64,000 nucleotides of DNA from a virus (taxonomy: Duplodnaviria; Caudoviricetes): positions 32,560 to 96,559 of the IMG/VR virus record IMGVR_UViG_3300012667_001143, one strand, 5' to 3'. This document shows positions 12,146-31,346 of the stretch, in pieces. Each line of letters opens with the position of its first letter. Positions within the stretch are counted from its first letter, which is position 1. The notes below the pieces were generated by a model. The model worked only from the letters and a program-made list of their open reading frames with translations. It did no database searches and was not told the DNA's origin. The position numbers were made by a program, and so were the translations under genes.

Positions 12146-14524
12146 TTATAGTATTATCCAGCCTACGCCGTCTGATTGAATCGTAAAACTTTCGTATTGT
12201 GTGTTTGAAGTCAATGTTGAAATACCGTCTATATTTTCACCAGCAGCAGCAGATACCGTAACGGTTCCAGTTGATACATTTTTAATGTTGTATAATCTCC
12301 CACCAGCTCCTATTGCTGTTGGAAGTGATAATGAAGCAGTTGTCGTAATTTTAAGTGTATAATCTTGCTCGGTTATCGTGTAATCTCCATTAATTGCTTT
12401 TATGGGGAATGATACTGGACCATATTGATCAGCATCTGTGATTATGTAAAAAGTCGATGCATCAGGCGTTAAAGAGTCATATTCAGCTTGAGTTACTTGA
12501 GCTATTTCAGATATATCGTCTGATACAATTACGGGTTTGGAATTTGAATAAATATCAGCGGCTGAAAGATTTCCACTAGCGCTGATATTACCTGATGCTG
12601 TTATATTCGTTAGAGAGATAGATCCACTTGTATCTCCCAACACACCATTTCCAATGGCTAGAACTCCTGCACTCAATCGGGTAATCCGTGTATCTATAGT
12701 GCCTGCATATACACTATCAGTGAAGGCTAACCCGCCACCAGAACCTACTCTAAACCCTAATGCAGGACCACCTACAGTTGTAGAATTGTTCCAACTCCAC
12801 TGCCCTGCTAAATTAGCGTTATTGTTGTTGTAAAATTGATGATTTCTTATGTTTATCGTTCCAGATGCAGTGATTCCTAAATCTCCCAATGAATTGTTTA
12901 AACTAGGAGCTTGCACGCCACTAATAGCGTTTAGATTGGTAGTATTAATATCTCCACTAGCGCTAATATTACCAGAAACTGTTAAACGTTCATTAGGTGT
13001 AGATGTACCAATGCCGACATTTCCAGCAACGATCAATCCATTTGTTGGAGCTGCTATGTTTGAGTAAGGTGTTCCAATCGATGTATTTCCGTGAACTGTT
13101 AATTTTGAAGCGGGATTTCCTATAACTGTGCCTACACCGATGTTTTGAGTTGGTTGAATTAAAAGATTTCCAGCTGCCCCTGTTCCAATATACAACGTGT
13201 TAAATGGATTCATGTGAGCAACACTTCTAGGTACTCCATTGTTATCTCTGACAGATATTGATCTATTATTATCTACAACAATTCCAGATGATGAACTAAT
13301 GCTGCCAGTAGCACTGATGCTACCCTGAACTATTAAATTTCCATTTATAGTTCCTCCAGTTGTATATAATATATTTTCTATTCCAGTGATGAATCCACTT
13401 GGATTTGAACTTGAATAAAACTGACCACTTTCACTAGCTAAAACATAGCTTCCAGTTGCGCTGTTTAGCGTAGAAATTTGTGCTTGCAAACCACCACTGA
13501 TACCAGTTACATCTTCAAAAGAAGCTATCGTATCTAAAACACTCAAATCGCTTGCTCTAGTTCCAATGCCAAATTTAAATTTATCAGAATGATCAAAGCC
13601 AATAATCGCGCCAGAATCATTTATTCCAGTTAATCCAGATCCAGTGACAAAGAAAATACCACCATCAACTGCTCCACCAGTTAAGTTGAGCATCAAGTAG
13701 TTACTTGCGACGTTTGTGTTTGTTGTGTTTACTATCGTTTCAACACCAGTAACATACAAACTATTGATATATACTTTATCGTGGAAAGTTTTATCTCCAA
13801 GGATTGTTTCTGCGCCAGTTGTATTTACATATCTGGATTCAGATTCTGTTTTCGTATAGTAGTTGCCAGAGAATGATAAATCAACTCCAGTAATATAACC
13901 TGAAGGATTAGTTATAGGGTAAAAAGAACCAGTTTGATTATTTAAAACAGTGATTTGATCTTGAAGATTGCCGCTCACTCCAGTCACGTAACCAGTTGGA
14001 GTATATCCACTTGGATTACTAGATGAATAAAACTGTCCTGTTTGGCTTTGCGTAATAAAGTTTCCAGTCTGAGACTTTAAAACATAATTGCCTGTTTGAT
14101 TATTTAAATCTAATATTTGGTTCTGTAAAGAACCACTAATGCCAGTTGTGTAAGAAAGCGTGGCATAGTTTGATAAATCAACTCCAGTGATGAATCCACT
14201 AGGATTCGACGCTGCGTAAAACGCACCCGTTTCGTCTTTAGCGACAAAAACACCAGTTTCATTTGGTCTAACAACTTGACCAGTAACCAAGTTCGCATAT
14301 TCGTCAGAGCTTAAATGATAAAATTGTCCAGAAACTCCTCCTTGTAAGCCTCCCAAAGAATTGTGAGACAATTCATCGCTGCCTCCACTGATATGAGTAA
14401 CTGAGTGGTTTATGACTCCTTCATTTAATGATATAGGATTTATATAAACGTTTTGATCCTGCTCTTCGACATTTAAATCAAAAGCAGGATCTGGCGTGAT
14501 GTTTATTGTAATTTGATCACTCAT
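12146..14524 (-). CDS. tail fibre-like protein
   Basis: NPSG(F/Y)ITG repeats, GNVGIGT motif, TQAEYDSL...TFYII motif. Confidence 0.75.
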   Translation of the reverse strand: MSDQITINITPDPAFDLNVEEQDQNVYINPISLNEGVINHSVTHISGGSDELSHNSLGGLQGGVSGQFYHLSSDEYANLVTGQVVRPNETGVFVAKDETGAFYAASNPSGFITGVDLSNYATLSYTTGISGSLQNQILDLNNQTGNYVLKSQTGNFITQSQTGQFYSSSNPSGYTPTGYVTGVSGNLQDQITVLNNQTGSFYPITNPSGYITGVDLSFSGNYYTKTESESRYVNTTGAETILGDKTFHDKVYINSLYVTGVETIVNTTNTNVASNYLMLNLTGGAVDGGIFFVTGSGLTGINDSGAIIGFDHSDKFKFGIGTRASDLSVLDTIASFEDVTGISGGLQAQISTLNSATGSYVLASESGQFYSSSNPSGFITGIENILYTTGGTINGNLIVQGSISATGSISSSSGIVVDNNRSISVRDNNGVPRSVAHMNPFNTLYIGTGAAGNLLIQPTQNIGVGTVIGNPASKLTVHGNTSIGTPYSNIAAPTNGLIVAGNVGIGTSTPNERLTVSGNISASGDINTTNLNAISGVQAPSLNNSLGDLGITASGTINIRNHQFYNNNNANLAGQWSWNNSTTVGGPALGFRVGSGGGLAFTDSVYAGTIDTRITRLSAGVLAIGNGVLGDTSGSISLTNITASGNISASGNLSAADIYSNSKPVIVSDDISEIAQVTQAEYDSLTPDASTFYIITDADQYGPVSFPIKAINGDYTITEQDYTLKITTTASLSLPTAIGAGGRLYNIKNVSTGTVTVSAAAGENIDGISTLTSNTQYESFTIQSDGVGWIIL
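12953..13028. repeat. 76-bp direct repeat, copy B
   Basis: 70/76 identical to 10041..10116. Confidence 0.9.
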
Positions 14525-14856
14525 AGATTAGTAACATTTTTGATTAAATAAACAGGTCCGTACATCAACTTGTCTGGGCATTCATTTTCTTTAACGGCAA
14601 AAAGATCCCAACTGCAAGGAGCAAGATCTATTGCGGTTCCTTGATTACCACTTAAACTGATTTTCGCTGTGCCGCTTGGAATGCTTAATACTTCAGTTTT
14701 AAAAGTTGCTTGGAGAGCGTCGTCAAAATCTCTTCTGATTTGACCTGTCAATGTAACACCACTTAAATTATAAGTAGATCCATTTCTTGTAATGTTCAAT
14801 GTCAAATTAAAACACTCTCCTTGTTCAATAGTTATACCTGTATAAGCAGCACTCAT
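14521..14856 (-). CDS. BppU N-terminal-like fibre attachment protein
   Basis: ITIEQGECFNLTL pattern; upstream of fibre; late motif upstream. Confidence 0.55.
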   Translation of the reverse strand: MSAAYTGITIEQGECFNLTLNITRNGSTYNLSGVTLTGQIRRDFDDALQATFKTEVLSIPSGTAKISLSGNQGTAIDLAPCSWDLFAVKENECPDKLMYGPVYLIKNVTNL

Positions 14857-14865
14857 CTCTTTTTA

Positions 14866-15889: not shown

Positions 15890-15942
15890 AATAAATTTTA
15901 CCTAAAAAATAGAATTTAACCAGTGATTTATTAACATACTTC

Positions 15943-16428
15943 ATGATTCAGCTATATAAGCCTAATTCAAAAAATCTTGGTTGCGCATTCTCTTTTAATC
16001 TTGGAACAACTGGTCGTGATAAAGAGCCATGTGTTTATATGAATGCCATTATGCAGCATTCTTGGAACGATAAAACAAAGAACGGCTCGTTTTCAGAAAA
16101 CGTAAAAAATCCAGATAAAACAATTATCGTAAAGCTCAATGAGTTTGAGCTTGGTGGATTTATTAATGCAATTGAAAACTATGGAGAATATAACGCATTT
16201 CATAGTTTCGAAGAAAATAAAACATCAATCCAATTCAAGCCATATACCAAGGCAAACGGTGCGAAAGCATTCTCACTGACTGTTACAAAAAACTCAGCTC
16301 TTAAATTCGGCATTGGATTGGAGATTGGAGAAGCTTATGCGATAAGAGAGTTCTTCAAAATGGTTCTCGCAAAGACTTTTCAATTCCGCATTTCGAATGC
16401 TTTCAACAGTGGCAAGTCAAATGAATAA
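15943..16428 (+). CDS. hypothetical protein
   Basis: 161-aa ORF heading a + strand operon. Confidence 0.7.
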   Translation: MIQLYKPNSKNLGCAFSFNLGTTGRDKEPCVYMNAIMQHSWNDKTKNGSFSENVKNPDKTIIVKLNEFELGGFINAIENYGEYNAFHSFEENKTSIQFKPYTKANGAKAFSLTVTKNSALKFGIGLEIGEAYAIREFFKMVLAKTFQFRISNAFNSGKSNE

Positions 16429-18304
16429 AAAAACAGTACTCATTCACAGCAATTTTTGCAAAGCTTTTACTGGTTTTGGAAAGAATAAGAAGAATATTCT
16501 TCGTTATCTATTCAAGACTGGAAAGTATAATATTGTTGAACTGGCAAATGGTCGCCATTGGAATGATCCAGAGCTTCAGCAAATGCCGTGGAAGTGCGCA
16601 GGATCTCTTCCAGACGCTCAAACGCTCTCTTCCTTAAGAGATGCAGCGGCACAGCGAAGCGCTGCCTACGGAGCCTACATGATCGATAATGCGATCAAGG
16701 AGTTTAAGCCTGATGTTTATATTGGCATCGAAGATATTTGGGCTTTTGATGGATTCGCTGAAAAGCCATGGTGGAATAAAATTAATTCCATGATTTGGAC
16801 TACCCTCGATAGCTTGCCAATTTTGCAGAGTGCTATTGATGCGGCACCAAAAGTAGACAACTATTATGTATGGGCTTCATTTGCGGAAAAAGCAATGAAG
16901 AAGATTGGTTACGATCACGTTAAAACTCTTCGTGGAAGCGTTGATGCAAATCAATTTTATCGTTTGAGCGATGAAGAAAGAAAGTCTTTAAGACAAAGAT
17001 TCAATTTGAGCGATGAATTTATCGTTGGCTTTGTTTTTAGAAATCAGCTTCGCAAAAGCGTTCCAAACATGCTTGAGGGATTCAAGAAGTTTAAAAAGGA
17101 AAACCCAAAAGCAAAACTTCTTCTTCACACTCATTGGTCAGAAGGATGGAATATCCCAGATTTATTAAAAGAAAAAGAAATCAATCCATCAGATATTCTA
17201 ACAACTTATTTCTGTCACAAATGCAAGCAGTATGAAATCAAGTCATTTTCTGGACAAGAATTAAATTGTTCATATTGCAATAGCTCAAAATCAGTCAATA
17301 CAACCAACATTAATCACGGAGTAAATGAAAACCAACTTAACGAAATCTATAATCTTATGGACGTTTATTGTCACCCTTTCACTAGCGGTGGTCAAGAAAT
17401 ACCCATCCAAGAAGCAAAGCTCACGGAATTAATAACTTTAGTCACAAGTTATTCGTGCGGAGAAGATTACTGCACACAAGAAAGCGGCGGATTTGATCTT
17501 AACTGGAATGAGTATAGAGAACCAGGTACTCAATTTATTAAAGCTTCTACATGCGCAGACGATATTGCTTTAAAGTTGAAAATGGTGAGTGATATGTCTC
17601 ATGAAGAAAGATCGTCTTTGGGGCAGATTGCTAGACAATTCGTTGTTGATAACTGCTCTATTGAGGCTATCGGCAAGCAGCTTGAAGAGATTATTGATTC
17701 AATGCCTTTTGTGGATCATGATTCAATTCCAAATGAAGCACAGGTAAATCCAGAATACCAAATTAATACAACTCTTTCTTTAGACGATTTTATCGTTGAC
17801 TGCTACAAAGGATTCTTAAATGAAAGAATAGACAAGAACAGTACTATTTTTAAACAATGGAAGAATATGTTCTCTAGTGGAACAGAACACTCCAAACTAA
17901 TTGAGCATCTTAAAAATACAACATCTGCAAAAAACAAAAAACCATTAGACTTTAGTGAAGTCTTGGATAAAGATGACGAAGGAAAAAGAATTGCGGTAGT
18001 CATTCCTCAATCAGAAACCGATGTGTTGTTGATTAATGGTTTGATGAGAGGTTTGAAAAAACAATATCCAAAGCATAATATTTATGTAATCACCCAGCCG
18101 AAATATTTTGAATATATTGAAGACAATGTTAATATCCATAAATGTATTCCCTATGCCGAAAGCATCGACAATGCTTTCATATTAGAGGGAGCTGGAGAAC
18201 ACAAAGGCTATTTTGACTTGGCGTTTTTCCCAAATACAACAACTCAAAAAACAATAACTTACGTCCACAACGGAAAAGACAAAATTCAATTTTCACTACA
18301 ATGA
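16421..18304 (+). CDS. GT4-like glycosyltransferase with zinc ribbon and extra C-terminal domain
   Basis: TGFG, RNQLRK, YNLMDVYCHP..GGQEIPIQEA; two CxxC. Confidence 0.8.
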   Translation: MNKKTVLIHSNFCKAFTGFGKNKKNILRYLFKTGKYNIVELANGRHWNDPELQQMPWKCAGSLPDAQTLSSLRDAAAQRSAAYGAYMIDNAIKEFKPDVYIGIEDIWAFDGFAEKPWWNKINSMIWTTLDSLPILQSAIDAAPKVDNYYVWASFAEKAMKKIGYDHVKTLRGSVDANQFYRLSDEERKSLRQRFNLSDEFIVGFVFRNQLRKSVPNMLEGFKKFKKENPKAKLLLHTHWSEGWNIPDLLKEKEINPSDILTTYFCHKCKQYEIKSFSGQELNCSYCNSSKSVNTTNINHGVNENQLNEIYNLMDVYCHPFTSGGQEIPIQEAKLTELITLVTSYSCGEDYCTQESGGFDLNWNEYREPGTQFIKASTCADDIALKLKMVSDMSHEERSSLGQIARQFVVDNCSIEAIGKQLEEIIDSMPFVDHDSIPNEAQVNPEYQINTTLSLDDFIVDCYKGFLNERIDKNSTIFKQWKNMFSSGTEHSKLIEHLKNTTSAKNKKPLDFSEVLDKDDEGKRIAVVIPQSETDVLLINGLMRGLKKQYPKHNIYVITQPKYFEYIEDNVNIHKCIPYAESIDNAFILEGAGEHKGYFDLAFFPNTTTQKTITYVHNGKDKIQFSLQ

Positions 18305-19464
18305 GCCATTTAATCGAAGAGTATTCTAAGAATTTAGGAGTTAAAATATCGAAGCCTCTTGTGTCCAAACATTTTTGGCCAATGGTTCCAGATAAATATG
18401 TTACTATTTGTGCAGACTCGCAAATTCCTTCTAAAAATTACAAGCACTATAATCTTGTTATTAATTTAATTAAAGAGTCTCTTGCGAAGAGAGGCATTAA
18501 AATAATTCAAATAGGAACATCCAGCAGTTTGAATCTGCAAAATGTAGATCAGCAGTTGTTTGATTTGCCATTTAAAAACATGGCTTATATTATTTCAAAA
18601 TCAATGCTTCATATTGGCGTTGACAATGTTTTTTCTCATTATGCCAGCTCGATTGAAACTCCAATGGTAACTATCTTTGGCAATGTTTACGAAACTGTGG
18701 CAAATGGATATTGGAGCAAAAATCAAATCAAGATAGAAGCTCCGTGGAAAGTAAAGCCATGTTTAAGCGCAAACGATTCGGAAGACACAATCAATAAAAT
18801 CAATCCAGAAGAAATAGCAAAAAAAATACTCGATCAATTAAAAATTCAAAACAAGATCAATATAAAAACAAAATTCATCGGTCGGTTTTACGACAATCAA
18901 GTGATTGAGCTTGTTCCAGATTTCTTTTCGCCAATCGAAAAGATTAGAAATCAGCATGTATTCATTCGCCCCGATTATGGCTTTGACGAACCAAGCTTTA
19001 TGAATTGGTGCAATTATCTGCAAAGTTATTCCATATTCGCGAATAAAGAATTAGATCTTCAGTTTTGCAGTCACTTTGCTTCAAAAATAAAAAACATTTC
19101 TTATATTTTGCATAAAGATTCGGCGGTGAGCTTGGATCATTTAGAAAAAATTCAAAACCTAAATATAGGAATCACTATCCTCTGCGAAAAAGAAGAGGAT
19201 CTTCCAGAAATGAGAGAAAGGTATTTTGATTTTAGTGTCCATCTTTATTACAAGCCAAATAAAAAAATACTCGGAGACGATATAAAATTCGATAATTTGT
19301 TTTTTAATTCCTCGAAAATCATTCTTTCTAAGGGAAATCAATACTCTTCTAAATACCATTTTCTTAATCAACAAAAAGATGTTGACAAAAACTTTAATTT
19401 AGAAGATAATGATGTCTTATTGGAAGAATTAGAACATTTTTATATTTATGAGCGAACAAAATAA
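18301..19464 (+). CDS. GT9-like glycosyltransferase
   Basis: KNYKHY, IIQIG, LHIGVDN...H.A, VTIFG. Confidence 0.65.
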   Translation: MSHLIEEYSKNLGVKISKPLVSKHFWPMVPDKYVTICADSQIPSKNYKHYNLVINLIKESLAKRGIKIIQIGTSSSLNLQNVDQQLFDLPFKNMAYIISKSMLHIGVDNVFSHYASSIETPMVTIFGNVYETVANGYWSKNQIKIEAPWKVKPCLSANDSEDTINKINPEEIAKKILDQLKIQNKINIKTKFIGRFYDNQVIELVPDFFSPIEKIRNQHVFIRPDYGFDEPSFMNWCNYLQSYSIFANKELDLQFCSHFASKIKNISYILHKDSAVSLDHLEKIQNLNIGITILCEKEEDLPEMRERYFDFSVHLYYKPNKKILGDDIKFDNLFFNSSKIILSKGNQYSSKYHFLNQQKDVDKNFNLEDNDVLLEELEHFYIYERTK

Positions 19465-20290
19465 TCAAGAAGAAGCCGATCCACAGGTCGAAGATTCGAG
19501 CGAAACACTGAAGCCTTATCAAAAGTATCGTCGAAACGATATCGGCTTAATTGATTCTGTGAATTACGTATTCAATGATGATGGTTCTGTTGATTGGAGA
19601 GCTATGATCAAGCCAGAGTTTCTTTACCCTAACAAAGATTGGTTCGAGCTTCGTAAGCTTGCCGTTCCAGCTTCTATAGAGGGTCTAGAAGACAAGCAGC
19701 TCCTAATCATGCTTGGTGGTATTAAAGAACTCGCAAAGCTCCGTGGCTTTCATTCTGTAAGCTACGATGTTCGCAACGAGCGTGAAAATTATGTTACTGC
19801 AAAATGCACAATTGAATGGATCGGTAATTATGAATCAGATCGCAAAATAGTTGTTTATGAAGACGTAGCGAATGCCACAGCATCAAATACAGATGATTTC
19901 TGCTTGAAGTTCTTGGAGAGTATTGCCTGCAATCGTGCATTTGTTCGATGCGTTAGAAACTTCTTGAATATCCATATTGTCGGAGCTGATGAAATTGATA
20001 AGTCAAAGAATCGCGTTGCTGAACCTATTGAAACTATTACGTCAAACGCTCTTCCTATTTCAGCACAGGGAACTCTTGAAAAAGCTGTTCATGAAAAGCT
20101 TAAGCTTGCAGATTTCGAAGCTTTTAAAGTTTACCTCAGAACCTTATGGAAGAAGGCTCAAGAAACAGAAGATTCTTCGACCTTGGCTCTTCTTCAAGAA
20201 GCTAAAGATTGGAAGCAATTCAAGGATGTGTCGGCAAAATCAGCTCGCGTATTGTTGAAGATTGTAAATGAAAATACAAAGGATAACTAA
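19448..20290 (+). CDS. putative ssDNA-annealing protein
   Basis: GGIKELA and IACNRAFVRCVR patterns. Confidence 0.45.
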   Translation: MSEQNNQEEADPQVEDSSETLKPYQKYRRNDIGLIDSVNYVFNDDGSVDWRAMIKPEFLYPNKDWFELRKLAVPASIEGLEDKQLLIMLGGIKELAKLRGFHSVSYDVRNERENYVTAKCTIEWIGNYESDRKIVVYEDVANATASNTDDFCLKFLESIACNRAFVRCVRNFLNIHIVGADEIDKSKNRVAEPIETITSNALPISAQGTLEKAVHEKLKLADFEAFKVYLRTLWKKAQETEDSSTLALLQEAKDWKQFKDVSAKSARVLLKIVNENTKDN

Positions 20291-20726
20291 TCCTACGGAT
20301 TTTTGTAGGTTAATCGATGACTTGAGTGAGTTGTTCTCAGAAGAGGATTCTCACTCAGGTCACACCCTGCTTCGTCACAATGCAGAAACAATCAAAGCCT
20401 CTTTTGGTCATGCTCAATTATTGAATTGGGATTTGTTTGTTTGGGCTTGCGAGAACGGTGGTAAATTCGACTCAGCTATTATGTTCTTTAATGAAAAGTC
20501 TCCAAAGTTTGGGGCGAGAATCTTTTCAGAATTTTTATGGTTATCAAAGAATCCAAAAGCTGGATATAAACTCTTTAGCGCTGCTGTAAAATTCGCTAGA
20601 CAAAATAAGTTCGATTATATAAGCATGTCAACGGTGACATCTCATCCTAAGCACGAAAAAATTAAATCATTCTATCAAAAAATGGGGTTTTTAAAAGACT
20701 CCGAAACTTACATATCAAAACTATGA
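20268..20726 (+). CDS. GNAT-like protein
   Basis: AGYKLF..A..FA and FYQKMGF. Confidence 0.6.
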   Translation: MKIQRITNPTDFCRLIDDLSELFSEEDSHSGHTLLRHNAETIKASFGHAQLLNWDLFVWACENGGKFDSAIMFFNEKSPKFGARIFSEFLWLSKNPKAGYKLFSAAVKFARQNKFDYISMSTVTSHPKHEKIKSFYQKMGFLKDSETYISKL

Positions 20727-20884
20727 ACCAAAGAAAAGCAAAAGAAATTAGATCAATTATTAATCCATCAGATCCTATCGGCAAGAGAAACTATCGTAGA
20801 GCTAAAAAGCGCTACGCTAAGTTATCGGCAGATGCAAAGCCTTTGTTTATTAAGTATCTTCGAGACATGATGAATCCATCATAA
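20723..20884 (+). CDS. 53-aa basic protein (not in ORF track)
   Basis: ATGA overlap; MNQRKAKEIR... Confidence 0.55.
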   Translation: MNQRKAKEIRSIINPSDPIGKRNYRRAKKRYAKLSADAKPLFIKYLRDMMNPS

Positions 20885-22057
20885 TGTTGTTTTATATATT
20901 TTGTAGGAGCTTGAAATCGGCGCTCCACTAACATATAAAAAATAATCATTCGCTACCTGGCCAACTGAGTAAATCAGTTGGCCAGTGTTTGTTATAGTGG
21001 ACTCTAATAAAGTCTGAGGATTATTTAAAACAAGCTTTAACTCTGAAGATATATAAGAATCTGTCCCTGTTTTTATTTGAGATGTATATAAAATAGTATG
21101 ACAAGATCCACTAGGTATTGTATCAAGTATAGTACTTTGCGGAGAAGGAAGAGTAACAACTCCTGTTAAAAGAGAAAAATCTACAGATTCTGTGCCATTA
21201 TTTATTTTAAATAAGTTTGTCTCTAAAAGAGTTTGAGGGTTTCTATCAGAGATTCCTGTAAATACTTTTGGGCCAAATTTTAAATGATTACCAGATCCAA
21301 ATACAGAATATGGAACCACAGTGAAGTAATAATCTGTATCGTATTCAAGACCAATTGGTTTAATAATTACAGTGTCAATATCTTCATAATCCTTTACTGT
21401 TTGAGTATATAAAAAGTAAGGGTGATTTGCTGGATTTAATTCTAAAGAATTGAATGGCTCTATATCATTTTCTGTAGATGCGTATATATCATATTTGATT
21501 ATGTCAATATAATTCAATGAGTTATCCAGCTGTACATTAACTAATATCTGGTCTAGTTGTTGTATGTTTTGGTATACAACTAATCCTTCGGCTGGATCTG
21601 CTCCATATACAGGAGGAGTATAAAGTAAAGTTGCTGATCCATCATATATAGTAGTAACTCCAGTATTTATTTGTGGAATATTGGCATAAAAATAAAACTC
21701 TGAAACATTTTTTGTTCCATCGTAAGCGGAGATAGTTGTTCTCACACCAAAATCTTTTTTATAAGATCCAAAAATACTGGCGTTTTCTATTTCTGTAAGC
21801 GTAAGGCTTCTACTTGTTGTTCCAGATTTATAGCCAGAAAACGCTACGCTTCCATCTATATTCAAGATATCAAAGCATACTGAATCTGCCAATGGATTGC
21901 TTATAAAATCAGAATCAGAAACTATTAAATTTCCATTCATATCCAATAAAGACAAAGAAAAAGTAACGTCTTTTTTTAGATGAACTCCACTGCCAGTATA
22001 AACTGCTCCTGTTAAATTGCCAGTATCTGGATTATAAACTGTTTCAAATTCGTACAT
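20879..22057 (-). CDS. tail-associated protein with FN3-like segment
   Basis: Follows gpJ; YYFTVVPYSVFGSG. Confidence 0.6.
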   Translation of the reverse strand: MYEFETVYNPDTGNLTGAVYTGSGVHLKKDVTFSLSLLDMNGNLIVSDSDFISNPLADSVCFDILNIDGSVAFSGYKSGTTSRSLTLTEIENASIFGSYKKDFGVRTTISAYDGTKNVSEFYFYANIPQINTGVTTIYDGSATLLYTPPVYGADPAEGLVVYQNIQQLDQILVNVQLDNSLNYIDIIKYDIYASTENDIEPFNSLELNPANHPYFLYTQTVKDYEDIDTVIIKPIGLEYDTDYYFTVVPYSVFGSGNHLKFGPKVFTGISDRNPQTLLETNLFKINNGTESVDFSLLTGVVTLPSPQSTILDTIPSGSCHTILYTSQIKTGTDSYISSELKLVLNNPQTLLESTITNTGQLIYSVGQVANDYFLYVSGAPISSSYKIYKTTL

Positions 22058-22060
22058 ATA

Positions 22061-25000
22061 TTAAGAAATTGTAATGTTAGTTGTATAGACGGCAGAAAAT
22101 TGGCGTTCCGAACCTGTTGGCGCTCTAAATATTCCAGATTTAGATGGATTTGATGTTAAGAATCTACCAGCATCTGATGGAGAAGCTTGAACAGAAAGAT
22201 TCCAAGTTCCATCTTGATCTGTAAATCCTGTTGTGTCAAAACTTGTTGAAGGCACTTCAAATTCTTTTTCTATGTAATAGTTAGAATTAGATATTTTGAC
22301 TATATAAGAAGAAGCATTATCAACGCCACTCCAACTGCCAGTGAATCCAAAAACAGAACCAGCTTTAAAAGCGAAATTAGTTATAACTGGACTGCTTAAT
22401 TGAGTCAAGTTAACAATAGGATTTTGGGTATTTGGCGAGGTTGCATAAAAAGTATCAGGAAGATAATCTGAAGTTATGTGCTTTTCTATTGATTCAAATT
22501 TACCAGTATCAAATTTTGAACAGTATACGCTGTATTCGTTTTGATTTTCTTCCCTAATGCTTATTATCTTGTATATTTGATCGCTCGCATTTTTCTTTTG
22601 AATGCGGTAAACGCCACCTTCAGGAATCATTGGAAGAAGATTGATATTAATATCGTTTTCGTCTATAAATAATTCACTGCCATAATTTTGATTTTGATGA
22701 CCTGTTACATTAAAAACAGTAATTTGTGGATTGTTTACAACATTAATTTCCTCGTTAAGAATGCCTTTGTAAGCATCAAACTCTACATCTATACGCCCAC
22801 TTATTGCTGCGCTTGGAGTGGTTCTTTTATCGCTTGCAGCGGAACTATAACGATAGCCAGTTATTAATTCTGCGCCAGAAACTCTCACAGAAGTAATGTC
22901 ACTAAATCCAGTATCGCATATTACTTTATTATAAGTATCACTATCTATTCCGTATTCGCCAGTAGAAAAAACAAAACCAGTAGCTCCAGTATTGTAATAG
23001 CAAAATATCTTTTGTAAAGATGGATAATTTGTACCAGTATACAAAGGAAACTGAACTGGTAATTTATTTATGTTTCCACTATTGTATCCTTGTGTGTATC
23101 TTGAGAAATAATATCTTCCAGTGAGTATATCGTCACTGCTATTAATTAATCCAGTAGTGACATCAAAATAAGGAACTCTATTTCTATTTGAATACGCAAT
23201 TTGTTCTATGTCTTCGCTTGAAGCAAAACCTGTTGGTGTATAAACAGTAACTTTTCCAGTGAAAGATCCACTGTCATACAAACCATCAATTCTTAGACTT
23301 TTGTTATTTAAATCAACATCTAAAATTCTACCGTAATTATTCAAAAGACTTTTCATTTCGTCTTCCACAATAATTAAGTCGCCAGGTCGGCAAAGCAAAG
23401 CATCCAAGCCAGCCATAAACTCAACACTTTGGTTTTCTCTGATTGTTTGATAAATCAAATGCTGCCCAATTCTTCTAGCCATAGCTCTAGAAGTAACACC
23501 GAGCGTGTTAATATCTGTTTTAAAAATACCTCTATTTCTTATGTCTGTTTCGTCTTGGATGTATTCTATTTTTGTTTGATAGTTATCAAATCTATCCAAG
23601 TAAGCGACTTCCACAGTATTAAACTGTTGATCTCTACGATTGTTAATGTAATTAAATAGTCCGTCTTTGACGTTTGAATTTGTGAAGATAGCTATTGGAT
23701 CTCTTGGTCTGTCATCCAAAAAGTGAATTTCTGAATTGCTGAAAAAGACGCTTCCTCTAAACAACGATGCTACGATATTAATAGCATCAAATATTTTAGT
23801 CTGCTCTTTAAACATTATATTACAAGAGTATCTTGGTTCTAAACCTCCGACACCATCAGAAACTCCAACGAAATATCCTTGTTCATCTACTGCATCACAA
23901 AATCTGCCAATTTTATAAAGCTCCCATTTATTGATTTGAGACTCCTCTATATAAGATCCTAAGCCATATCTTTTGCTAGTTAAAAGATCATAAATAATCC
24001 AAGCTGGATTATCTGTCCAACCTTCTTCGAATGTTCCATTCCAATCTCCATCATAAATTAAATCTTGGGTTGTGTATTCGGTCGCTGATTTTATATATCT
24101 TTTGTCTTTGCCATTATCAAGAGGTTTGTAATTGCTAGGGATTTTGATTTTTTTCAATCTGCAATCATATGTTCTCTCTGGAACAGATCCAAAAGTTCTT
24201 GCATCAATTTTTACTCCAACAACGCTAGAAAACGGATATGATAAATTGTTTTCAATTATTTCTGTGACTTTGTAAAGAGATGCTTCTTTGCTCAATAGAA
24301 TAGAATTCGTTTCCGCAGATAGTTTAGTTATTTTTATGTATCTTTTAACAACAGATGGATCTTCATTGTTATTGAGTTTTGGCAATTTAAATGGCTTGTT
24401 CAACTCTGATTCTTCAAATTGACCACCGCTTATATCTCTAACAGATTGCAAATCGCTCATTGGAGAATCTGGACTGCCAAAATCAATAAGCATTTGTCCC
24501 TCGACCATTCCTAAAATAGCAAACTTTTTCGTAACCTTGTCGGAGATTTTACCATTTGTGGTTTTCCCATATTCAACCTCAATCTCTAAAATTGCTGGCA
24601 ATCTATCTTGAGTGCTTCGATTTTCATTCGGAAAGTCAGTATGAGCCGTGTCTCTCAAAGAAGAAATAGCTAATGTAAAGAATACAGAAGAAACATTAGA
24701 GTTTTCAATAGTATGGGTTATTGGTATAGCGAGTTCATCATATATTTCTTCGTTATCGCTATTCCAATCTGAATAGTTAACATTTGTTTGAGTTCTTAAG
24801 TCTTGAGAACCTTCTGATTCAACAAGATCTTGATTCAATTCTGGATTGTTAGCTCCTCTTGTTTTATAACTACCTTGAATTCTTCTAACTCTTCCACTTG
24901 GAACAAAAGGCCCAATTAAAGATGTTCCATAATCAAAATCAATATAAATATTTTTAAAATCATTGAGCGTCTCTTGGTATTCATCGCCATTTCTAAAATC

Positions 25001-26260: not shown

Positions 26261-26269
26261 GTCTTATTT

Positions 26270-26944: not shown

Positions 26945-27351
26945 TTTAGTTTACCCTTAATCCTTTCTAATATACTTACATCATAATCTTTGTTTTGTGG
27001 TTCATAAATATTAAATTTGCGAGTATTTATCGAATAAATAACAAAAGACAAGCAGCAAGCCTCTGACATTTTAACGTCGAATTCAGACTCAGTTTCATTT
27101 CCAAGAATATGACTGTGAAAAACAGAAACTAAAGAATAGCTATTTTTAAATTTTAAATAACTCGCTGGATCAATAGAAAAGAAAGATTTCGTATCTGCTG
27201 CTTGATTTTTTTCAATAGTAGCTACGAAATCTTTTGATTCTTCATCATATCCAATAAACCCACATATTTCATTTATTGAGTTTCTGTTAGAGTGATTAAT
27301 CAAAAAATCTTTAATTGCCGCAAATGATTTGTTTTTTATTTTATCTTCCAT
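26941..27351 (-). CDS. JAB/MPN tail tip protein (gpK N-domain-like)
   Basis: EICG, VFHSH...SEFD; between L and I. Confidence 0.8.
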   Translation of the reverse strand: MEDKIKNKSFAAIKDFLINHSNRNSINEICGFIGYDEESKDFVATIEKNQAADTKSFFSIDPASYLKFKNSYSLVSVFHSHILGNETESEFDVKMSEACCLSFVIYSINTRKFNIYEPQNKDYDVSILERIKGKLK

Positions 27352-29704
27352 ATCTATCTGTTCCAGGGAACCCTCCAAATGGTAAAGAATTTTGCGATGT
27401 TTGAATTAATGTTGTTTCAAATTGCGTGATGTAATTTGTTTCTTGCAAATCTATACTTCCAGTATATTCTCCACTTAAGTTAATTTTTAAATTCTGATTA
27501 TTAGAAGCTGATACACTGTATGAAGATGTTCCAGTAATGTCCATATCCCACCAAGCAAATAATCCAGTTTTTAAAATTGGTTTGTTTTGACTTACTCCTG
27601 TAAATTCTGCGTATGTTCTAGGAATTGGGAACTTAATTTCTTTATTGTCATCTTCCCTATTAAAGAATTCTTTTCTGGCATCAATACCATCGAATCCAGT
27701 CCATATAGCAGTTGCTCCTAATTTAATATTACTAGTTAATTTAATATTAGAATATACTCCAGAATTTCTAGGATTTGGTGTGAATGTATCGCCGCTTGAA
27801 AACTGCCAATCATTGATTCCGAACTTAAGACTTGTTGTAGATCCAGTGTAACTTGGATTTTTAAACAAAAAGAATTCTCCAGAAAACTTTAATTGTGGAT
27901 TTCTAGGTTTTAATATGTATTCTGCAAAAGTAGAGCTATCCGCTCCGTACATTTTTATATAACCTTCTGGAAAAGAAGTTACGCCTGTTCCGCTGGTTTG
28001 ACCACCGAATGCCTCTAAATAAAACGGTTGATTTGTTTGGAAATCCCAAGGCATAGAAATAGACCTATTCACTGTTGTATATGAAGGGGTTGGCGCTCCA
28101 GAATATTGTCTTGTCGCAAAATCTAATACTAAATTACCTCCACTTGCATAAAGATTCAAACCGCTATACTGACAATTTGTTTTTACATTGTGAAAAATAT
28201 TAAGCAATTGATCGTTTCTAGTAACCCCATTTGGAAAACTAAAATATGAAGCGATATGTAAATCTTTCGAAGTTGCTATTCCGCTTGATAAAAAATCATC
28301 GTTATAAACAGCTAAACCAGAAGGCTCAAATATACATACTTCGCCAAGACCAGCATTGGTATCAGAACTTATACCACTAATAATTATTTGATCTATATAT
28401 GAAGCGTTGAACACATTTGTACTTCTAGATCCACTATTATACACTACAGATTCTAAGCTACCCTCTACATCTCCATTAAGAAGTAATTTTATAGATGCGT
28501 CTCCAAAATTGTTGTTTCCTTGCCTATCGTATAAATCGATTCTATTTATTAATCTTGGGCGATCCCAAGTGAATTGGATATAAGGATTTGCGGCTCCAGA
28601 ACTAACCCATGAGTAAGCAGTATCAACGTTCTTAACGGATACGCCAGTTAATCCATCTACAACGTTTCTGAAAGAAGAACCCGATAATACACTAGAACCA
28701 GTAATAGAAGCTTCTGAAGCAATGTTATTGCTATTGTATCTTGATTTGTGGGAGAAATTTATATAAGAATTTGTTATTGGGTAATTAGTAGTCTCTGAAG
28801 TTTGCAGTTCTCCGTTTGAAAATCTTTTTTTGCAACCATCTAATTTTTTATTGCATCCGTCTTTTAACCAGAATGTTTCATTATTATCTGGGGCATTATA
28901 TTCTGTAGAGACATGTCCGCTTTGAGAGACATACCATATTTTTGCGGGCCTACTTTTTTCTTTGGTACCTGGTCTTGGATTTATTGTAATTTTATTATTA
29001 AAACGAAACGCTGGAGTTCCGCTCTCATAATAAATACCAGTATCCCACTCACCAGTGCTGAAGATTGTATTCCATTTATTTTCAGAATCATTATTCAACT
29101 TTAAGGTTTGACCATATTCGGTTTCTATTGGAAGACCTTCATAATTGCAACCATTTCCTCTGTAATACCATGAACAGTATCTAGCTATAATCAATCTATT
29201 ATTGACTTCAAAGTTTTCTAAATCAAGAGGAGATGAAAGTTCGAATTCGACAAAAACTTTATTTTCTGCGGTTTTTTGACTGATAACAAAAGTATCTAAA
29301 CTTAATTCTGCTGATGAGTCTGCTTGTCCCCACGGATTACCACCATCAAAATTAATATCATCTAAGTATTTTACAAAAGTTCTTTTTCTGATTAATTTGC
29401 CAAATTGAAAATCCTTATTGTTTAATAAAGCTTGAGTGATAGCGTAATCTTTGTTGGATATTCTAATCTTTGGTCTTGGTAGTTGATTGCTTGCATTGAC
29501 TTCAAAACCTTCAGATTCTACAGGCAGACTTCCATATTTTTTACCTTGCCATGAAATCTCTCCTTCAAATATAGCTCCTCCATGAAACATCAAGATAGCA
29601 TCTGGTTTATCAATAGTATTGAAATGCAACTGAAATAACTCTACTATAGCAGTAGGCTGCAAATCAGTTAAACTTCTAGCAATTTTATCTTGTCCTTGTC
29701 CCAT
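27341..29704 (-). CDS. tail tip protein (gpL-like) with large insertion
   Basis: CSWYYRG.GC.Y, DGCNK.L.GCKKRF, terminal FGGFPG. Confidence 0.88.
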   Translation of the reverse strand: MGQGQDKIARSLTDLQPTAIVELFQLHFNTIDKPDAILMFHGGAIFEGEISWQGKKYGSLPVESEGFEVNASNQLPRPKIRISNKDYAITQALLNNKDFQFGKLIRKRTFVKYLDDINFDGGNPWGQADSSAELSLDTFVISQKTAENKVFVEFELSSPLDLENFEVNNRLIIARYCSWYYRGNGCNYEGLPIETEYGQTLKLNNDSENKWNTIFSTGEWDTGIYYESGTPAFRFNNKITINPRPGTKEKSRPAKIWYVSQSGHVSTEYNAPDNNETFWLKDGCNKKLDGCKKRFSNGELQTSETTNYPITNSYINFSHKSRYNSNNIASEASITGSSVLSGSSFRNVVDGLTGVSVKNVDTAYSWVSSGAANPYIQFTWDRPRLINRIDLYDRQGNNNFGDASIKLLLNGDVEGSLESVVYNSGSRSTNVFNASYIDQIIISGISSDTNAGLGEVCIFEPSGLAVYNDDFLSSGIATSKDLHIASYFSFPNGVTRNDQLLNIFHNVKTNCQYSGLNLYASGGNLVLDFATRQYSGAPTPSYTTVNRSISMPWDFQTNQPFYLEAFGGQTSGTGVTSFPEGYIKMYGADSSTFAEYILKPRNPQLKFSGEFFLFKNPSYTGSTTSLKFGINDWQFSSGDTFTPNPRNSGVYSNIKLTSNIKLGATAIWTGFDGIDARKEFFNREDDNKEIKFPIPRTYAEFTGVSQNKPILKTGLFAWWDMDITGTSSYSVSASNNQNLKINLSGEYTGSIDLQETNYITQFETTLIQTSQNSLPFGGFPGTDRYGR

Positions 29705-29737
29705 AAAGAAATTTACACTTTATAATAAATATTTAAC

Positions 29738-30172
29738 ATGAACTTTACACTAATAAAAAGCTTGGAAAGCAATCAAGAAAAACAAATAATAAGTTTCTTT
29801 TTGAAATCCAAACCTTATTCGTTTTGTTCTCTGCCGTCTCATTCTTTGTGCGTTTTTAAAATCAAAGAGTATTTGAATTTTCTTCTTGAAAATTGCGACG
29901 TATATATTTGCAAGGATTTTTTTGTGGCTGTTTCTATGGAAGCAGATACAGTGATTGTTGAATTTGTTTATGGATCACCTTTTAATGTCATAGGAGATTT
30001 TGAAAGATTTCGCAAATGGTTCAAATCAAAAAACAATCAAGTAACCCACTTCTATACAGAAATACAAAGAAAGCATAAACGCAAGTCTTTTCTGAAATTT
30101 ATTGAGAAGCGAGACAGAAATGCTCAAATAAAGCTTGACAATCAGAAAATCTGCGTATTATGGAATACATAA
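29738..30172 (+). CDS. hypothetical protein
   Basis: 144-aa ORF. Confidence 0.6.
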   Translation: MNFTLIKSLESNQEKQIISFFLKSKPYSFCSLPSHSLCVFKIKEYLNFLLENCDVYICKDFFVAVSMEADTVIVEFVYGSPFNVIGDFERFRKWFKSKNNQVTHFYTEIQRKHKRKSFLKFIEKRDRNAQIKLDNQKICVLWNT

Positions 30173-30684
30173 TGGCTTATAGAAATAAATACGATAAAGA
30201 TGGCTCCTCATTTAATCTGGGGTTGAACGCAGAAAATAGCTTTGTCGCAGCCGCGAAGAAAAACGGTATGGAAGTGAAGCAATCCTCTAGGGAGGATGAA
30301 TTCAATCATATTGATTTCTTTGTATCGAAGGACAACTTGAAGTTCTCTGTGGAAGTGAAGTCTCGCAAGAAAATCAAAAGAGCCGATTCTAAGGTTAACG
30401 ATGATTTGATTTGGATCGAGTTCAAGAATGTTAGGGGATCGCGTGGGTGGCTTTATGGTCACGCAGACGCTGTAGCATTCGAACGAGAGGATCACTTTGT
30501 AATTGTGGATCGAAAGCTTCTTGCAAGGCTCTGTGAGCGCTTGTGTGACCTAACTAAGATGAACACTGATGTTAAGATGCCTCTTTATGTGGGATACCAA
30601 CGTCGAGATCGCAAAGATGTTTTATCTTTGATTAAGATGACTGACATCATGACAAACATCAAGCATGTCATTCTTCCTAAATGA
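30172..30684 (+). CDS. PD-(D/E)XK nuclease
   Basis: HIDF...VEVKS; WIEFKNVRG..GWLYG. Confidence 0.75.
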   Translation: MAYRNKYDKDGSSFNLGLNAENSFVAAAKKNGMEVKQSSREDEFNHIDFFVSKDNLKFSVEVKSRKKIKRADSKVNDDLIWIEFKNVRGSRGWLYGHADAVAFEREDHFVIVDRKLLARLCERLCDLTKMNTDVKMPLYVGYQRRDRKDVLSLIKMTDIMTNIKHVILPK

Positions 30685-31346
30685 ATCCAGAAATCAGCTT
30701 CATACCAACCCAATCAAAACAGTGGGTTCTACATTTGATCTTTGTTCGCATTCCAAAAAATGCGAGCACTTCTATTTACCATCACTTAGGTAAATACAAT
30801 TTGGTTAAAAAATACGAACCATATTTTAAAAACAACTGTAACAATCCTCTGTATCGAAATTTCTTCGATACGACTCACGCCAAACCTGAAGAAATTAAAA
30901 AGATCATTCCAGCAAATGTAAATAATTACTTTTCTTTTTGTGTTGTTCGGAATCCGTGGGATCGGTTTGTTTCTATGTATTCCTTCTCTTTGAAGAATAA
31001 ACTTTGGAAGCTTTTTGGTCTCGATGAAGAACCATCTTTTTTAGAGTTTTGTAAAATCTGTGAACAACGAAAAGAAGATGGAGATCCTTATTTCTTTCCA
31101 ATTCAACAACAGTGTGAATGGCTTTCTGGTGGATTCGATGTTAAGAAAATTCTTACGTTTGAAAATTTAAAAACAGAATTCGCGGAAATGATTCAAGATA
31201 TTAATGCTTGCCATATATCTCCTCACCTGCCTCACATGAACGCGACAGATCATAAAAATTATCAACATTATTATAATGATTATACTAAAGATTTAGTCGC
31301 TGAACTTTATAATAAAGATATCGAACAATTTAATTACCAATTTTAA
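30681..31346 (+). CDS. sulfotransferase family 2 protein
   Basis: FVRIPKNASTS and VRNPWDRFVSMY PAPS-binding motifs. Confidence 0.85.
   Translation: MNPEISFIPTQSKQWVLHLIFVRIPKNASTSIYHHLGKYNLVKKYEPYFKNNCNNPLYRNFFDTTHAKPEEIKKIIPANVNNYFSFCVVRNPWDRFVSMYSFSLKNKLWKLFGLDEEPSFLEFCKICEQRKEDGDPYFFPIQQQCEWLSGGFDVKKILTFENLKTEFAEMIQDINACHISPHLPHMNATDHKNYQHYYNDYTKDLVAELYNKDIEQFNYQF

What the first reader, a model, noticed from the sequence alone, without database searches (positions are those of the whole stretch)
12146..31346. Candidate proteoglycan-like virion coat: [S/T]-G sequons plus a phage glycan toolkit
Seen: virion proteins are strongly enriched in SG/TG. By hand, about 34 occur in the first ~390 aa of the 792-aa fibre (roughly two thirds of its Gly), with dense runs in the gpL insertion, gpJ C-terminus, 20879..22057, 14521..14856 and 40504..41829; DnaE, Clp and rII show no such pattern by eye. 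The window encodes GT4-like, GT9-like, GT2/GT7-like, GT61, pyruvyltransferase and family-2 sulfotransferase domains. Known: Ser-Gly is the glycosaminoglycan attachment motif in animals, GT61 includes protein O-GlcNAc transferases, and some mycobacteriophages glycosylate their virions. Inference: [S/T]G is a sequon for a sulfated/pyruvylated glycan coat.
Basis: partly seen in the sequence, partly recalled or inferred. Interest (0 to 1): 0.88.

Follow-up and report, generated by a model that had tools for sequence, protein, structure and literature searches.

The report
Ser/Thr-Gly excess in phage tail proteins
The outer tail and fibre modules of this uncultured 96.5-kb aquatic phage carry two to three times too many Ser-Gly and Thr-Gly pairs, in loops and laid over unrelated folds, which looks like a recognition tag (possibly for the phage's own sugar-adding enzymes), but no enzyme gene tracks the excess and the proposed proteoglycan-like sulfated coat is not supported.

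Summary
[S/T]-G is the most over-represented ordered dipeptide in the tail module (TG rank 1, SG rank 4 of 400). It survives 20-residue block shuffles, acts at protein level rather than DNA level, and has sharp domain limits: 53-68% of Gly follow Ser/Thr in the outer modules of gpL, gpJ and the fibre, against 0-5% in their conserved cores. Lambda, T5 and T4 structural proteins lack it. In 243 distant homologues of the lectin-like gpL domain the ratio is 0.96, so the excess is specific to this lineage and the fold does not require it.

It does not track the excess. The Zn-ribbon GT4 plus split GT9 cassette is core to the whole phage family, including sister clades with no excess. The sulfotransferase and the pyruvyltransferase-GT2-GT61 protein are sporadic and are missing from relatives that have the full excess. 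No hallmark of glycosaminoglycan attachment is present.

Best reading, about 0.35: acceptor loops for O-glycosylation by the conserved soluble glycosyltransferases. The main rival, about 0.3, is a structural loop habit with no modification.

This scan has flagged similar Ser-Gly-type excesses in other uncultured aquatic phages. No chemistry exists for any of them.

The parts
12146..14524 (-). 792-aa tail fibre. The N-terminal shaft holds four copies of a repeat of about 45 aa with [ST]G at fixed positions (short motifs such as NPSG[FY] and [QE]TGx[FY]).
   Evidence: 46/22.6 [ST]G, z 5.8. 34 of 50 Gly in residues 1-400 follow S/T. 21 sites lie in the 4 repeat copies. Weak Phage_tail_C hit.
14521..14856 (-). 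111-aa fibre-assembly-like protein.
   Evidence: phrog_1084 and L-shaped tail fibre assembly phrog_3304. 5/1.6 [ST]G, z 3.0.
20879..22057 (-). 392-aa tail protein directly after gpJ, family unknown.
   Evidence: 14/5.5, z 4.4. Homologues in relatives reach z 5.6-7.3. No profile similarity to the gpL insert or the J C-terminus.
22064..23290 (-). gpJ C-terminal outer region, residues 991-1399. The whole gpJ gene spans 22061-26260.
   Evidence: 21 of 32 Gly follow S/T here, against 3 of 63 in residues 1-990. 19 alignment columns are mostly [ST]G across 32 homologues. Phage-tail_3 core at residues 819-969.
27344..29089 (-). gpL insertion/extension, residues 206-787, including a lectin-like (F-type lectin / CBM32 / DUF7402) beta-sandwich. 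The whole gpL gene spans 27341-29704.
   Evidence: 27 of 51 Gly follow S/T, against 0 of 16 in the gpL core. AF2 model: 24 of 27 site glycines lie in non-regular structure. Foldseek TM about 0.8 to fucose-binding lectin and CBM32 domains. Distant homologues have ratio 0.96.
40504..41829 (-). 441-aa virion structural protein (phrog_1645), mildly enriched.
   Evidence: 15/8.7, z 2.5. 65-69% identical to a virion structural protein of T4-like cyanophages, whose own z is 0.5-1.8.
15943..20726 (+). Five-gene cassette conserved across the phage family: a 161-aa protein; a 635-aa Zn-ribbon GT4-like enzyme carrying a GT9 N-lobe; a 387-aa protein that starts with the GT9 C-lobe; a 280-aa protein with no GT signal; and a 152-aa GNAT-like protein.
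   Evidence: Pfam and NCBIfam. AF2 pLDDT 84 with GT4 fold hits, best 3oy2, E 3e-16. Present in 80 IMG/VR loci and in 5 of 5 further records. The cassette proteins themselves have 9 [ST]G against 8.8 expected.
30681..31346 (+). 221-aa family-2 sulfotransferase, an accessory gene.
   Evidence: Sulfotransfer_2, E 4.8e-16. Missing at the same position in L003 and L005 and absent from complete G004.
61182..63659 (+). 825-aa three-domain enzyme: polysaccharide pyruvyltransferase + GT2/GT7C + GT61. An accessory gene.
   Evidence: Pfam 65.6, 31.8/40.9 and 89.2 bits. Only partial matches in 3 of 17 related records.

Best explanation
[S/T]-Gly is a selected surface-loop motif laid over the outer, receptor-binding modules of the tail tip and fibres: a lectin-like beta-sandwich in gpL, the gpJ C-terminus, the 392-aa protein and the fibre shaft repeats.

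The single most likely mechanism is that these loops are acceptor sites for cytoplasmic O-glycosylation of Ser/Thr before virion assembly. The enzymes would be the family's conserved soluble GT-B proteins (the Zn-ribbon GT4 and the split GT9), using phage-made nucleotide sugars. Strain-specific tailoring enzymes could extend the glycan in this phage: GT11, GT25 and FkbM methyltransferase upstream of the window, plus the pyruvyltransferase-GT2-GT61 protein and the sulfotransferase.

Shown: the excess, its domain limits, its loop location, its independence from fold, and the presence of the enzymes. Inferred: that anything is attached, which enzyme does it, and what the glycan is. It is not a proteoglycan-type (glycosaminoglycan) system.
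For: 1. The excess is ordered and chemically specific. Ser and Thr are both enriched, while N, D, GS and GT are not.
2. It acts at protein level. The DNA word [C/G]TGG is enriched only in the one matching frame, 10.4 against 4.8 per kb.
3. It covers modules with no detectable mutual profile similarity in one phage (hhalign probability below 1%). The enriched proteins of the 80 related loci plus this phage fall into 11 BLAST-unrelated groups. It stops at the edge of the conserved cores.
4. The fold does not require it. 243 DUF7402/CBM32-like stretches from 126 distant proteins have ratio 0.96. The phage's sites come from D/N-G becoming [ST]-G and from [ST]-A/V becoming [ST]-G, so the dipeptide was reached from both sides. 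A milder version of the same pattern appears in the 441-aa protein compared with cyanophage homologues.
5. 24 of 27 site glycines lie in loops of the gpL model.
6. Sites persist at 30-45% identity with frequent S/T interchange, and lineage-specific sites also appear.
7. The toolkit has at least 12 glycan genes, including two sugar-nucleotide enzymes.
8. Precedent: Aah/TibC heptosyltransferases modify Ser/Thr at the start of a loop in a strand-loop-strand motif (PMC3835316, read).
Against: - No glycosyltransferase co-varies with the excess. The core cassette (GT4-like 53-66% identical) is present in clades whose fibres have ratio 0.87-1.06. The accessory enzymes are sporadic.
- No gene found by BLAST is shared by all enriched lineages and absent from the non-enriched ones.
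- Within single relatives some large gpL inserts are not enriched while the fibre has z 8-11. This phage's own LRR tail proteins are not enriched.
- The cassette lies on the strand of the replication genes and follows DnaE-Clp directly in many relatives. Its Pfam families are typical of enzymes that build lipid-linked LPS or capsule, so the host surface is an equally natural target.
- About half the sites are strictly conserved, as structural residues would be.
- A caveat on the negative evidence: the 'non-enriched' fibres still carry 2-2.7 [ST]G per 100 aa from composition alone, against about 0.8 in ordinary ORFs of this phage.
Confidence: 0.35

Rival explanations
1. A structural loop habit with no modification. 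In this lineage's pool of exchangeable adhesin modules, Ser/Thr-Gly (side-chain-capped turn plus flexible Gly) has replaced the D-G, N-G and G-T turn signatures of other phage fibres. It travels with the modules when they are swapped between phages. The glycan genes serve another purpose.
For: The excess is a property of modules, not of whole phages. About half the sites are strictly conserved. The fibre sites are multiplied by a tandem shaft repeat. Coliphage fibres and non-enriched relatives instead enrich DG and GT. At conserved Gly positions the phage has S/T where distant homologues have D/N. No enzyme co-varies.
Against: Modules with no detectable sequence or profile similarity share it while the same fold elsewhere has ratio 0.96. 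Some sites arose by [ST]-A/V becoming [ST]-G, which a turn requirement does not predict. In the gpL model most sites lie in longer loops: only 6 of 27 are within two residues of a strand end. N and D are not used although they serve as well in such turns.
Confidence: 0.3
2. Binding-surface composition. The [ST]G-rich loops are the carbohydrate- or receptor-contacting loops of lectin-like adhesin modules, rich in small hydroxyl and flexible residues, much as antibody binding loops are.
For: The gpL insert contains a fucose-lectin/CBM32-like domain. The excess is restricted to distal receptor-binding modules. The sites lie in loops.
Against: It does not explain the strict order, since GS and GT are not enriched. 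It does not explain the fibre shaft repeats. Bacterial CBM32-like homologues that bind glycans show no excess.
Confidence: 0.12
3. Another modification or a host enzyme: phosphorylation by the conserved APH/kinase-like protein (5615-6682), or modification by a host cytoplasmic enzyme present only in the hosts of the enriched clades.
For: The hydroxyl specificity fits. The APH-like gene is conserved next to the cassette in many relatives. A host factor would explain why no phage gene co-varies.
Against: There is no precedent for kinase tagging of phage fibres. The APH-like gene also occurs in the non-enriched G014. The hosts are unknown.
Confidence: 0.08
4. Chemical durability. Asn-Gly (deamidation-prone) and Asp-Gly (isomerisation-prone) turns have been replaced by Ser/Thr-Gly in long-lived extracellular particles.
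For: NG is depleted in the predefined tail module (35/60, z -3.4). D/N-G positions of distant homologues are S/T-G in the phage.
Against: NG and DG are at expectation in the strongly enriched proteins. It does not explain [ST]-A/V becoming [ST]-G. Sister clades with the same core genes (their habitats were not checked) and coliphages do not show it.
Confidence: 0.07
5. Chance, composition or a DNA-level artefact.
For: The fibre is rich in S, T and G, and repeats inflate the counts.
Against: The excess survives block shuffles, removal of the fibre, a gene set defined beforehand, and a frame test. It recurs in dozens of relatives with z up to 12.
Confidence: 0.01

Closest known systems
Bacterial autotransporter heptosyltransferases (Aah/TibC) acting on AIDA-I, TibA and Ag43
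   Same: Soluble cytoplasmic enzymes related to GT9. [quoted passage not shown] Here a GT9-like enzyme is core to the family, and the [ST]G sites lie in loops of adhesin modules.
   Different: The phage GT9 is split over two genes, with its N-lobe fused to a Zn-ribbon GT4. No transfer has been shown. The enzyme also occurs in clades without the excess. Only the C-terminal lobe of GT9 (profile positions 104-245 of 247) matches.
Virion glycosylation of mycobacteriophages by phage-encoded glycosyltransferases (Freeman et al. 2023; known to me from memory and from citing papers such as PMC11256854, not read here)
   Same: Phage-encoded glycosyltransferases near structural genes are proposed or shown to glycosylate virion proteins.
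   Different: There the capsid and tail-tube proteins are modified and the chemistry is known. Here the candidates are distal tail modules with a dipeptide signature, the host is unknown, and no chemistry exists.
Chlorovirus (PBCV-1) capsid glycosylation by virus-encoded soluble enzymes
   Same: A virus carries its own cytoplasmic set of glycosyltransferases, a methyltransferase and sugar-nucleotide enzymes. The best fold match of the 635-aa GT4 is a chlorovirus NY2A glycosyltransferase (3oy2).
   Different: The chlorovirus glycans are N-linked at unusual Asn sites on the major capsid protein (from memory). The fold match is generic GT4 at 14% identity.
Animal proteoglycan Ser-Gly xylosylation and EOGT (GT61) O-GlcNAc on EGF repeats
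   Same: Both use a Ser/Thr-Gly context.
   Different: No GT14 xylosyltransferase was seen among the ORFs scanned. Thr is as common as Ser. There is no acidic flank and no EGF-type Cys frame. GT61 is confined to this phage while the excess is clade-wide.
Phage or host LPS/capsule remodelling enzymes (GT9, GT25, GT11, GT4, FkbM, pyruvyl- and sulfotransferases acting on lipid-linked glycans)
   Same: Every enzyme family in the toolkit has its best-known members in LPS or polysaccharide synthesis. The core-plus-variable-island layout resembles serotype loci.
   Different: That function would leave the [ST]G excess unexplained.

Membership tests
Proteoglycan-type (glycosaminoglycan) Ser-Gly attachment | Acceptor is Ser only, in Ser-Gly with nearby acidic residues | tested here: not met
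   TG is as enriched as SG or more (66 and 65 sites, z 7.5 and 5.5; TG z 15.6 in distant relatives). No D/E enrichment within 6 residues of the sites.
Proteoglycan-type (glycosaminoglycan) Ser-Gly attachment | Initiating xylosyltransferase (GT14) and linker enzymes | tested here: not met
   No such family in the Pfam/NCBIfam/PHROG scans of the ORFs examined. Not every small ORF was scanned.
Proteoglycan-type (glycosaminoglycan) Ser-Gly attachment | Sulfotransferase travels with the acceptor signature | tested here: not met
   The sulfotransferase is absent from complete G004 and from L003/L005, which keep the full excess. A 30%-identical copy occurs in the non-enriched G015.
EOGT-type GT61 protein O-GlcNAc transfer | GT61 enzyme present wherever the sequon is used | tested here: not met
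   The GT61 domain sits in the 825-aa protein of this phage. Among 17 related records the GT61 region matches only two short pieces, in non-enriched records G011 and G015.
Autotransporter heptosyltransferase (BAHT, Aah/TibC) | Single-chain GT9-like GT-B enzyme | tested here: not met
   Only the GT9 C-lobe lies in the 387-aa protein (Pfam positions 104-245 of 247). The N-lobe-like Rossmann unit sits at the end of the 635-aa GT4 (TIGR02201, E 0.05; AF2 strands and helices at 531-623).
Autotransporter heptosyltransferase (BAHT, Aah/TibC) | Acceptor Ser/Thr at the start of a loop between strands of a beta-rich adhesin | tested here: inconclusive
   21 of 27 gpL sites lie wholly in loops, but only 6 of 27 are within two residues after a strand end. 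Flanks are enriched in beta-type residues in relatives.
Autotransporter heptosyltransferase (BAHT, Aah/TibC) | Heptose transfer to protein | not testable with these tools
   Needs biochemistry.
Phage virion glycosylation (mycobacteriophage type) | Phage-encoded glycosyltransferases next to structural genes | tested here: met
   The cassette at 15943-20726 lies between the gpJ/392-aa genes and the fibre genes, and borders fibre genes in most relatives. It is, however, transcribed on the strand of the replication genes.
Phage virion glycosylation (mycobacteriophage type) | Glycan detected on virion proteins | not testable with these tools
   The phage is uncultured. There is no match to the fibre or to the 635-aa GT in 50,697 cultured phage records.
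Phage virion glycosylation (mycobacteriophage type) | Acceptor signature co-varies with the enzymes among relatives | tested here: not met
   The enzymes are universal in the family. The excess needs at least 6 changes on the GT4 tree and is absent from a 20-member sister clade.

The most novel reading that the evidence does not exclude
A widespread family of uncultured aquatic siphophages tags the loops of its outer tail adhesin modules with Ser/Thr-Gly. It O-glycosylates them in the cytoplasm with a conserved two-chain GT4/GT9 enzyme complex, and strain-specific tailoring islands diversify the glycan. This would be a phage counterpart of autotransporter hyper-glycosylation, and possibly the same phenomenon behind the Ser-Gly-type excesses this scan has flagged in unrelated aquatic phage lineages.
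Probability: 0.3. Interest if true: 0.85.

Novelty: new variant of a known kind. Interest (0 to 1): 0.62.

Why it matters
If the pairs are modification sites, virion glycosylation would not be a peculiarity of mycobacteriophages and giant algal viruses. It would be common in environmental phages, with a sequence signature that could be read straight from metagenomes. It would also give a purpose to the many glycosyltransferase genes of aquatic phages, whose function is still unexplained.

If they are not modification sites, the result still shows a strong, heritable, order-specific dipeptide bias laid over unrelated folds. Current knowledge of turn and loop preferences does not predict this. 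It could also serve to flag distal receptor-binding modules in uncultured phages.

Either way, the report shows that glycan genes lying next to tail genes are not evidence that the two are functionally linked.

Tried and rejected
- Composition artefact: rejected by whole-protein, 40-residue and 20-residue block shuffles.
- Selection bias: rejected with a tail module defined beforehand.
- DNA-level motif (Chi-like or methylase-type word): rejected. Only the matching frame is enriched. The preference for T-ending Ser/Thr codons before GGN may be ordinary codon context, for example avoidance of A|GG; this was not tested.
- Generic property of phage fibres: rejected with 41 lambda, T5 and T4 structural proteins (maximum z 3.2; they enrich DG and GT instead).
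- Fold-intrinsic signature: rejected for the lectin-like gpL domain. hhalign found no hidden homology among the gpL insert, the J C-terminus and the 392-aa protein.
- Co-occurrence with the 825-aa enzyme, the sulfotransferase or the core cassette: none found.
- Gene-content comparison of 3 enriched against 3 non-enriched genomes: returned only structural genes, a SET protein, a 212-aa protein and small ORFs. The comparison is confounded by relatedness. The 212-aa gene tracks only one enriched clade.
- Searches of cultured phages with the fibre and with the GT4 found nothing.
- Sequence and profile searches of the PDB did not identify the 635-aa, 280-aa or 212-aa proteins.
- The promoter/terminator scan was no better than shuffled sequence.
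- The genome-contig scan returned only MAG contigs that look like mis-binned phage, so no bacterial gene context was obtained.
- The tape measure's mild excess comes largely from a Gly/Ser-rich tail and is uninformative.
- Burial of the sites could not be computed because model coordinates are not exposed.

Full report
**What the DNA is.** The window is bases 32560-96559 of a single 96,559-bp virus record. It is a siphophage with lambda-type tail-tip genes on the minus strand:
- gpL, 27341-29704 (Phage_tail_L, E 5e-41);
- a gpK-like JAB protein;
- a gpI-like protein (phrog_32);
- gpJ, 22061-26260 (Phage-tail_3).

After these come a 392-aa protein and, further on, a 792-aa fibre with a small fibre-assembly-like partner. 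DnaE, a ClpB-like ATPase, a Mom-family protein, homing nucleases and RNA-repair genes fill the rest. No cultured phage matches the fibre or the large glycosyltransferase.

**Checking the observation.**
- Shuffling each protein gives [ST]G observed/expected of 46/22.6 for the fibre, 27/12.0 for gpL, 14/5.5 for the 392-aa protein, 5/1.6 for the 111-aa protein, 24/15.5 for gpJ and 15/8.7 for the 441-aa virion protein. Replication and other non-virion proteins sit at expectation.
This holds when shuffling is confined to 20-residue blocks and when the fibre is left out. NG, DG, GS and GT are not enriched.
- To remove selection bias I defined the tail module beforehand by position and strand. TG is rank 1 (z 7.3) and SG rank 4 (z 5.7) there, against ranks 50 and 41 in all other ORFs.
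- The DNA word behind the dipeptide is enriched only in the matching reading frame, so the effect is on the protein.
- The excess has sharp limits. In gpJ, 3 of 63 Gly follow Ser/Thr in residues 1-990 but 21 of 32 do in 991-1399. In gpL the figures are 0 of 16 in the core and 27 of 51 in the insertion.
- About 21 of the fibre's 46 sites are copies within a four-fold shaft repeat.

**Is it ordinary for phage tails?** No. Forty-one structural proteins of lambda, T5 and T4 have ratios near 1 (maximum z 3.2). As a set, their fibres enrich DG and GT, the classical hairpin signatures.

**Relatives.**
- Six close relatives found through gpJ keep the excess in gpL, gpJ and the 392-aa homologue at 42-50% identity.
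- Eighty loci found through the GT9-like protein show z up to 12 in fibres, and strong excess in proteins with no BLAST similarity to this phage. Pooled, those have TG 135 against 44 expected (z 15.6) and SG 113 against 51.
- The enriched proteins fall into 11 BLAST-unrelated groups.
- The gpL insert, the J C-terminus and the 392-aa family show no profile similarity to one another.

**Is it imposed by the fold?**
- The AF2 model of gpL is confident over the insertion. It places 24 of 27 site glycines in non-regular structure, mostly in longer loops rather than two-residue hairpins.
- Part of the insertion is a fucose-lectin/CBM32-like beta-sandwich.
- A full HMMER search with that domain returned 243 homologous stretches in 126 distant proteins. 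Their [ST]G ratio is 0.96, and 21% of their Gly follow Ser/Thr, equal to their Ser+Thr content.
- At the phage's sites these homologues mostly have D-G, N-G or A-G where Gly is conserved, and T-A or T-V where Ser/Thr is conserved. The dipeptide was therefore reached from both sides. This points to selection on the pair itself rather than on a turn position.
- The 441-aa protein shows a milder version of the same pattern against its 65-69% identical cyanophage homologues.

**The glycan toolkit.**
- The 635-aa protein is a GT4-type GT-B enzyme with a Cys4 insertion. AF2 gives pLDDT 84, and Foldseek's best hit is a chlorovirus glycosyltransferase followed by many GT4 enzymes. It ends in a Rossmann unit resembling a GT9 N-lobe. 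The next gene begins with the GT9 C-lobe.
- The 280-aa gene gave no glycosyltransferase signal. Its nearest named neighbours in the ESM Atlas are annealing-protein families.
- The pyruvyltransferase, GT2/GT7C and GT61 domains are one 825-aa protein at 61182-63659.
- Upstream of the window the genome adds a conserved 357-aa GT, two sugar-nucleotide epimerase/dehydratase-type enzymes, a second GT4, GT25, GT11, an FkbM methyltransferase and a DegT-like fragment.

**Does the toolkit track the excess?** It does not.
- The cassette at 15943-20726, the 357-aa GT and one of the two sugar-nucleotide enzymes (376 aa) are found in every family member examined.
- That includes genomes whose large ORFs have a pooled ratio of 0.87-1.06, against 1.4-1.5 in this phage and two enriched relatives. 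It also includes loci whose 1,500-2,900-aa fibres have z between -1.4 and +0.7.
- On a tree of the GT4 protein, a 26-member clade is enriched throughout (24 scored as enriched, 2 could not be scored). Its 20-member sister clade contains no enriched member (6 scored as non-enriched, 14 could not be scored). At least six changes of state are needed overall.
- The accessory enzymes are sporadic. The complete genome G004 is strongly enriched but lacks the sulfotransferase and has only a GT2 piece of the 825-aa protein. G001 lacks the 825-aa protein altogether.
- No gene detectable by BLAST separates all enriched lineages from the others.
- Within single relatives, large gpL inserts can be neutral while the fibre has z 8-11. 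This phage's own two LRR tail proteins are neutral.
- One caveat weakens this negative result. The 'neutral' fibres are so rich in Ser, Thr and Gly that they still carry 2-2.7 such pairs per 100 residues, about three times the density in ordinary proteins of this phage.

**Verdict.**
- A recognition or acceptor role for the pair is the best single reading (about 0.35). Aah/TibC-type adhesin glycosylation is the nearest precedent (PMC3835316).
- Nothing ties the pair to any particular enzyme.
- The sulfated/pyruvylated proteoglycan analogy fails each feature that could be tested.
- A structural loop habit carried by exchangeable modules remains nearly as likely (about 0.3).
- The toolkit could equally act on host surface glycans.

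**Earlier notes of this scan.** Notes on other genomes report similar Ser-Gly-type excesses in unrelated aquatic phages, and the same split GT9/GT4 pair. I used them as leads only.

Noticed in passing
window 16397-19464: A GT9-type enzyme is split over two coupled genes that overlap by 4 nt. Its N-lobe-like Rossmann unit forms residues ~531-623 of the 635-aa Zn-ribbon GT4, and its C-lobe starts the 387-aa protein. The split is kept in all 80 related loci. Earlier notes of the scan describe the same arrangement in other phages.
   Followed up: partly
window 19448-20290: The 280-aa gene inside the 'glycan' cassette shows no glycosyltransferase signal. Its nearest named neighbours in the ESM Atlas are single-strand annealing protein families, so the cassette may not be purely about glycans.
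   Followed up: partly
window 27341-29704, gpL residues ~327-459: The gpL insertion contains a fucose-lectin/CBM32-like domain (TM about 0.8), while the same genome encodes a GT11 (fucosyltransferase family) enzyme and sugar-nucleotide dehydratase/epimerase-type enzymes. A possible link between what the tail binds and what the phage synthesises was not explored.
   Followed up: no
genome 19402-26136 (L002:4403-11137), upstream of the window: A variable glycan island: GT4, GT25, FkbM methyltransferase, GT11, a DegT-like fragment and a 324-aa sugar-nucleotide enzyme. Its GT and tailoring genes are mostly absent from the seven relatives compared; the flanking 376-aa SDR is found in all of them and the 324-aa one has only 35-40% matches. 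The layout resembles a serotype locus: conserved core plus swappable tailoring genes.
   Followed up: partly
window 15251-15889 (-): A 212-aa protein (phrog_3704, labelled 'ferredoxin', no Pfam or PDB match) is 78-90% identical across relatives whose other proteins are 45-65% identical. It always lies next to the cassette and is confined to the 26-member enriched clade.
   Followed up: partly
window 14866-15273 (-): A SET-domain protein (E 3.7e-11) sits between the 212-aa gene and the fibre-assembly/fibre genes and is conserved there in relatives. It is a candidate protein lysine methyltransferase of virion proteins.
   Followed up: no
window 40504-41829 (-): The 441-aa virion structural protein is 65-69% identical to a virion structural protein of T4-like Synechococcus myoviruses (S-RIM8, S-RIM50, S-SRM01). 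This implies gene exchange with cyanophages or a cyanobacterial host. By contrast, 9 of 20 MAG contigs carrying the GT4 were binned with Bacteroidota.
   Followed up: partly
window 12146-29704, [ST]G sites: Ser/Thr codons before Gly end in T in 76% of cases, against 45% elsewhere. TCA and ACA are avoided, perhaps because A|GG(A) resembles a ribosome-binding site.
   Followed up: partly
tail module, genome-wide: Asn-Gly is depleted in the predefined tail module (35 observed, 60 expected, z -3.4). Much of this comes from the tape measure and the LRR proteins.
   Followed up: no
window 7061-9436 and 10537-12144 (-): Two DUF285 (BspA-like leucine-rich repeat) tail proteins with 23-28% Ser+Thr show no [ST]G excess here, but their homologues in L139 and L142 do (z 3.4-4.0).
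   Followed up: no
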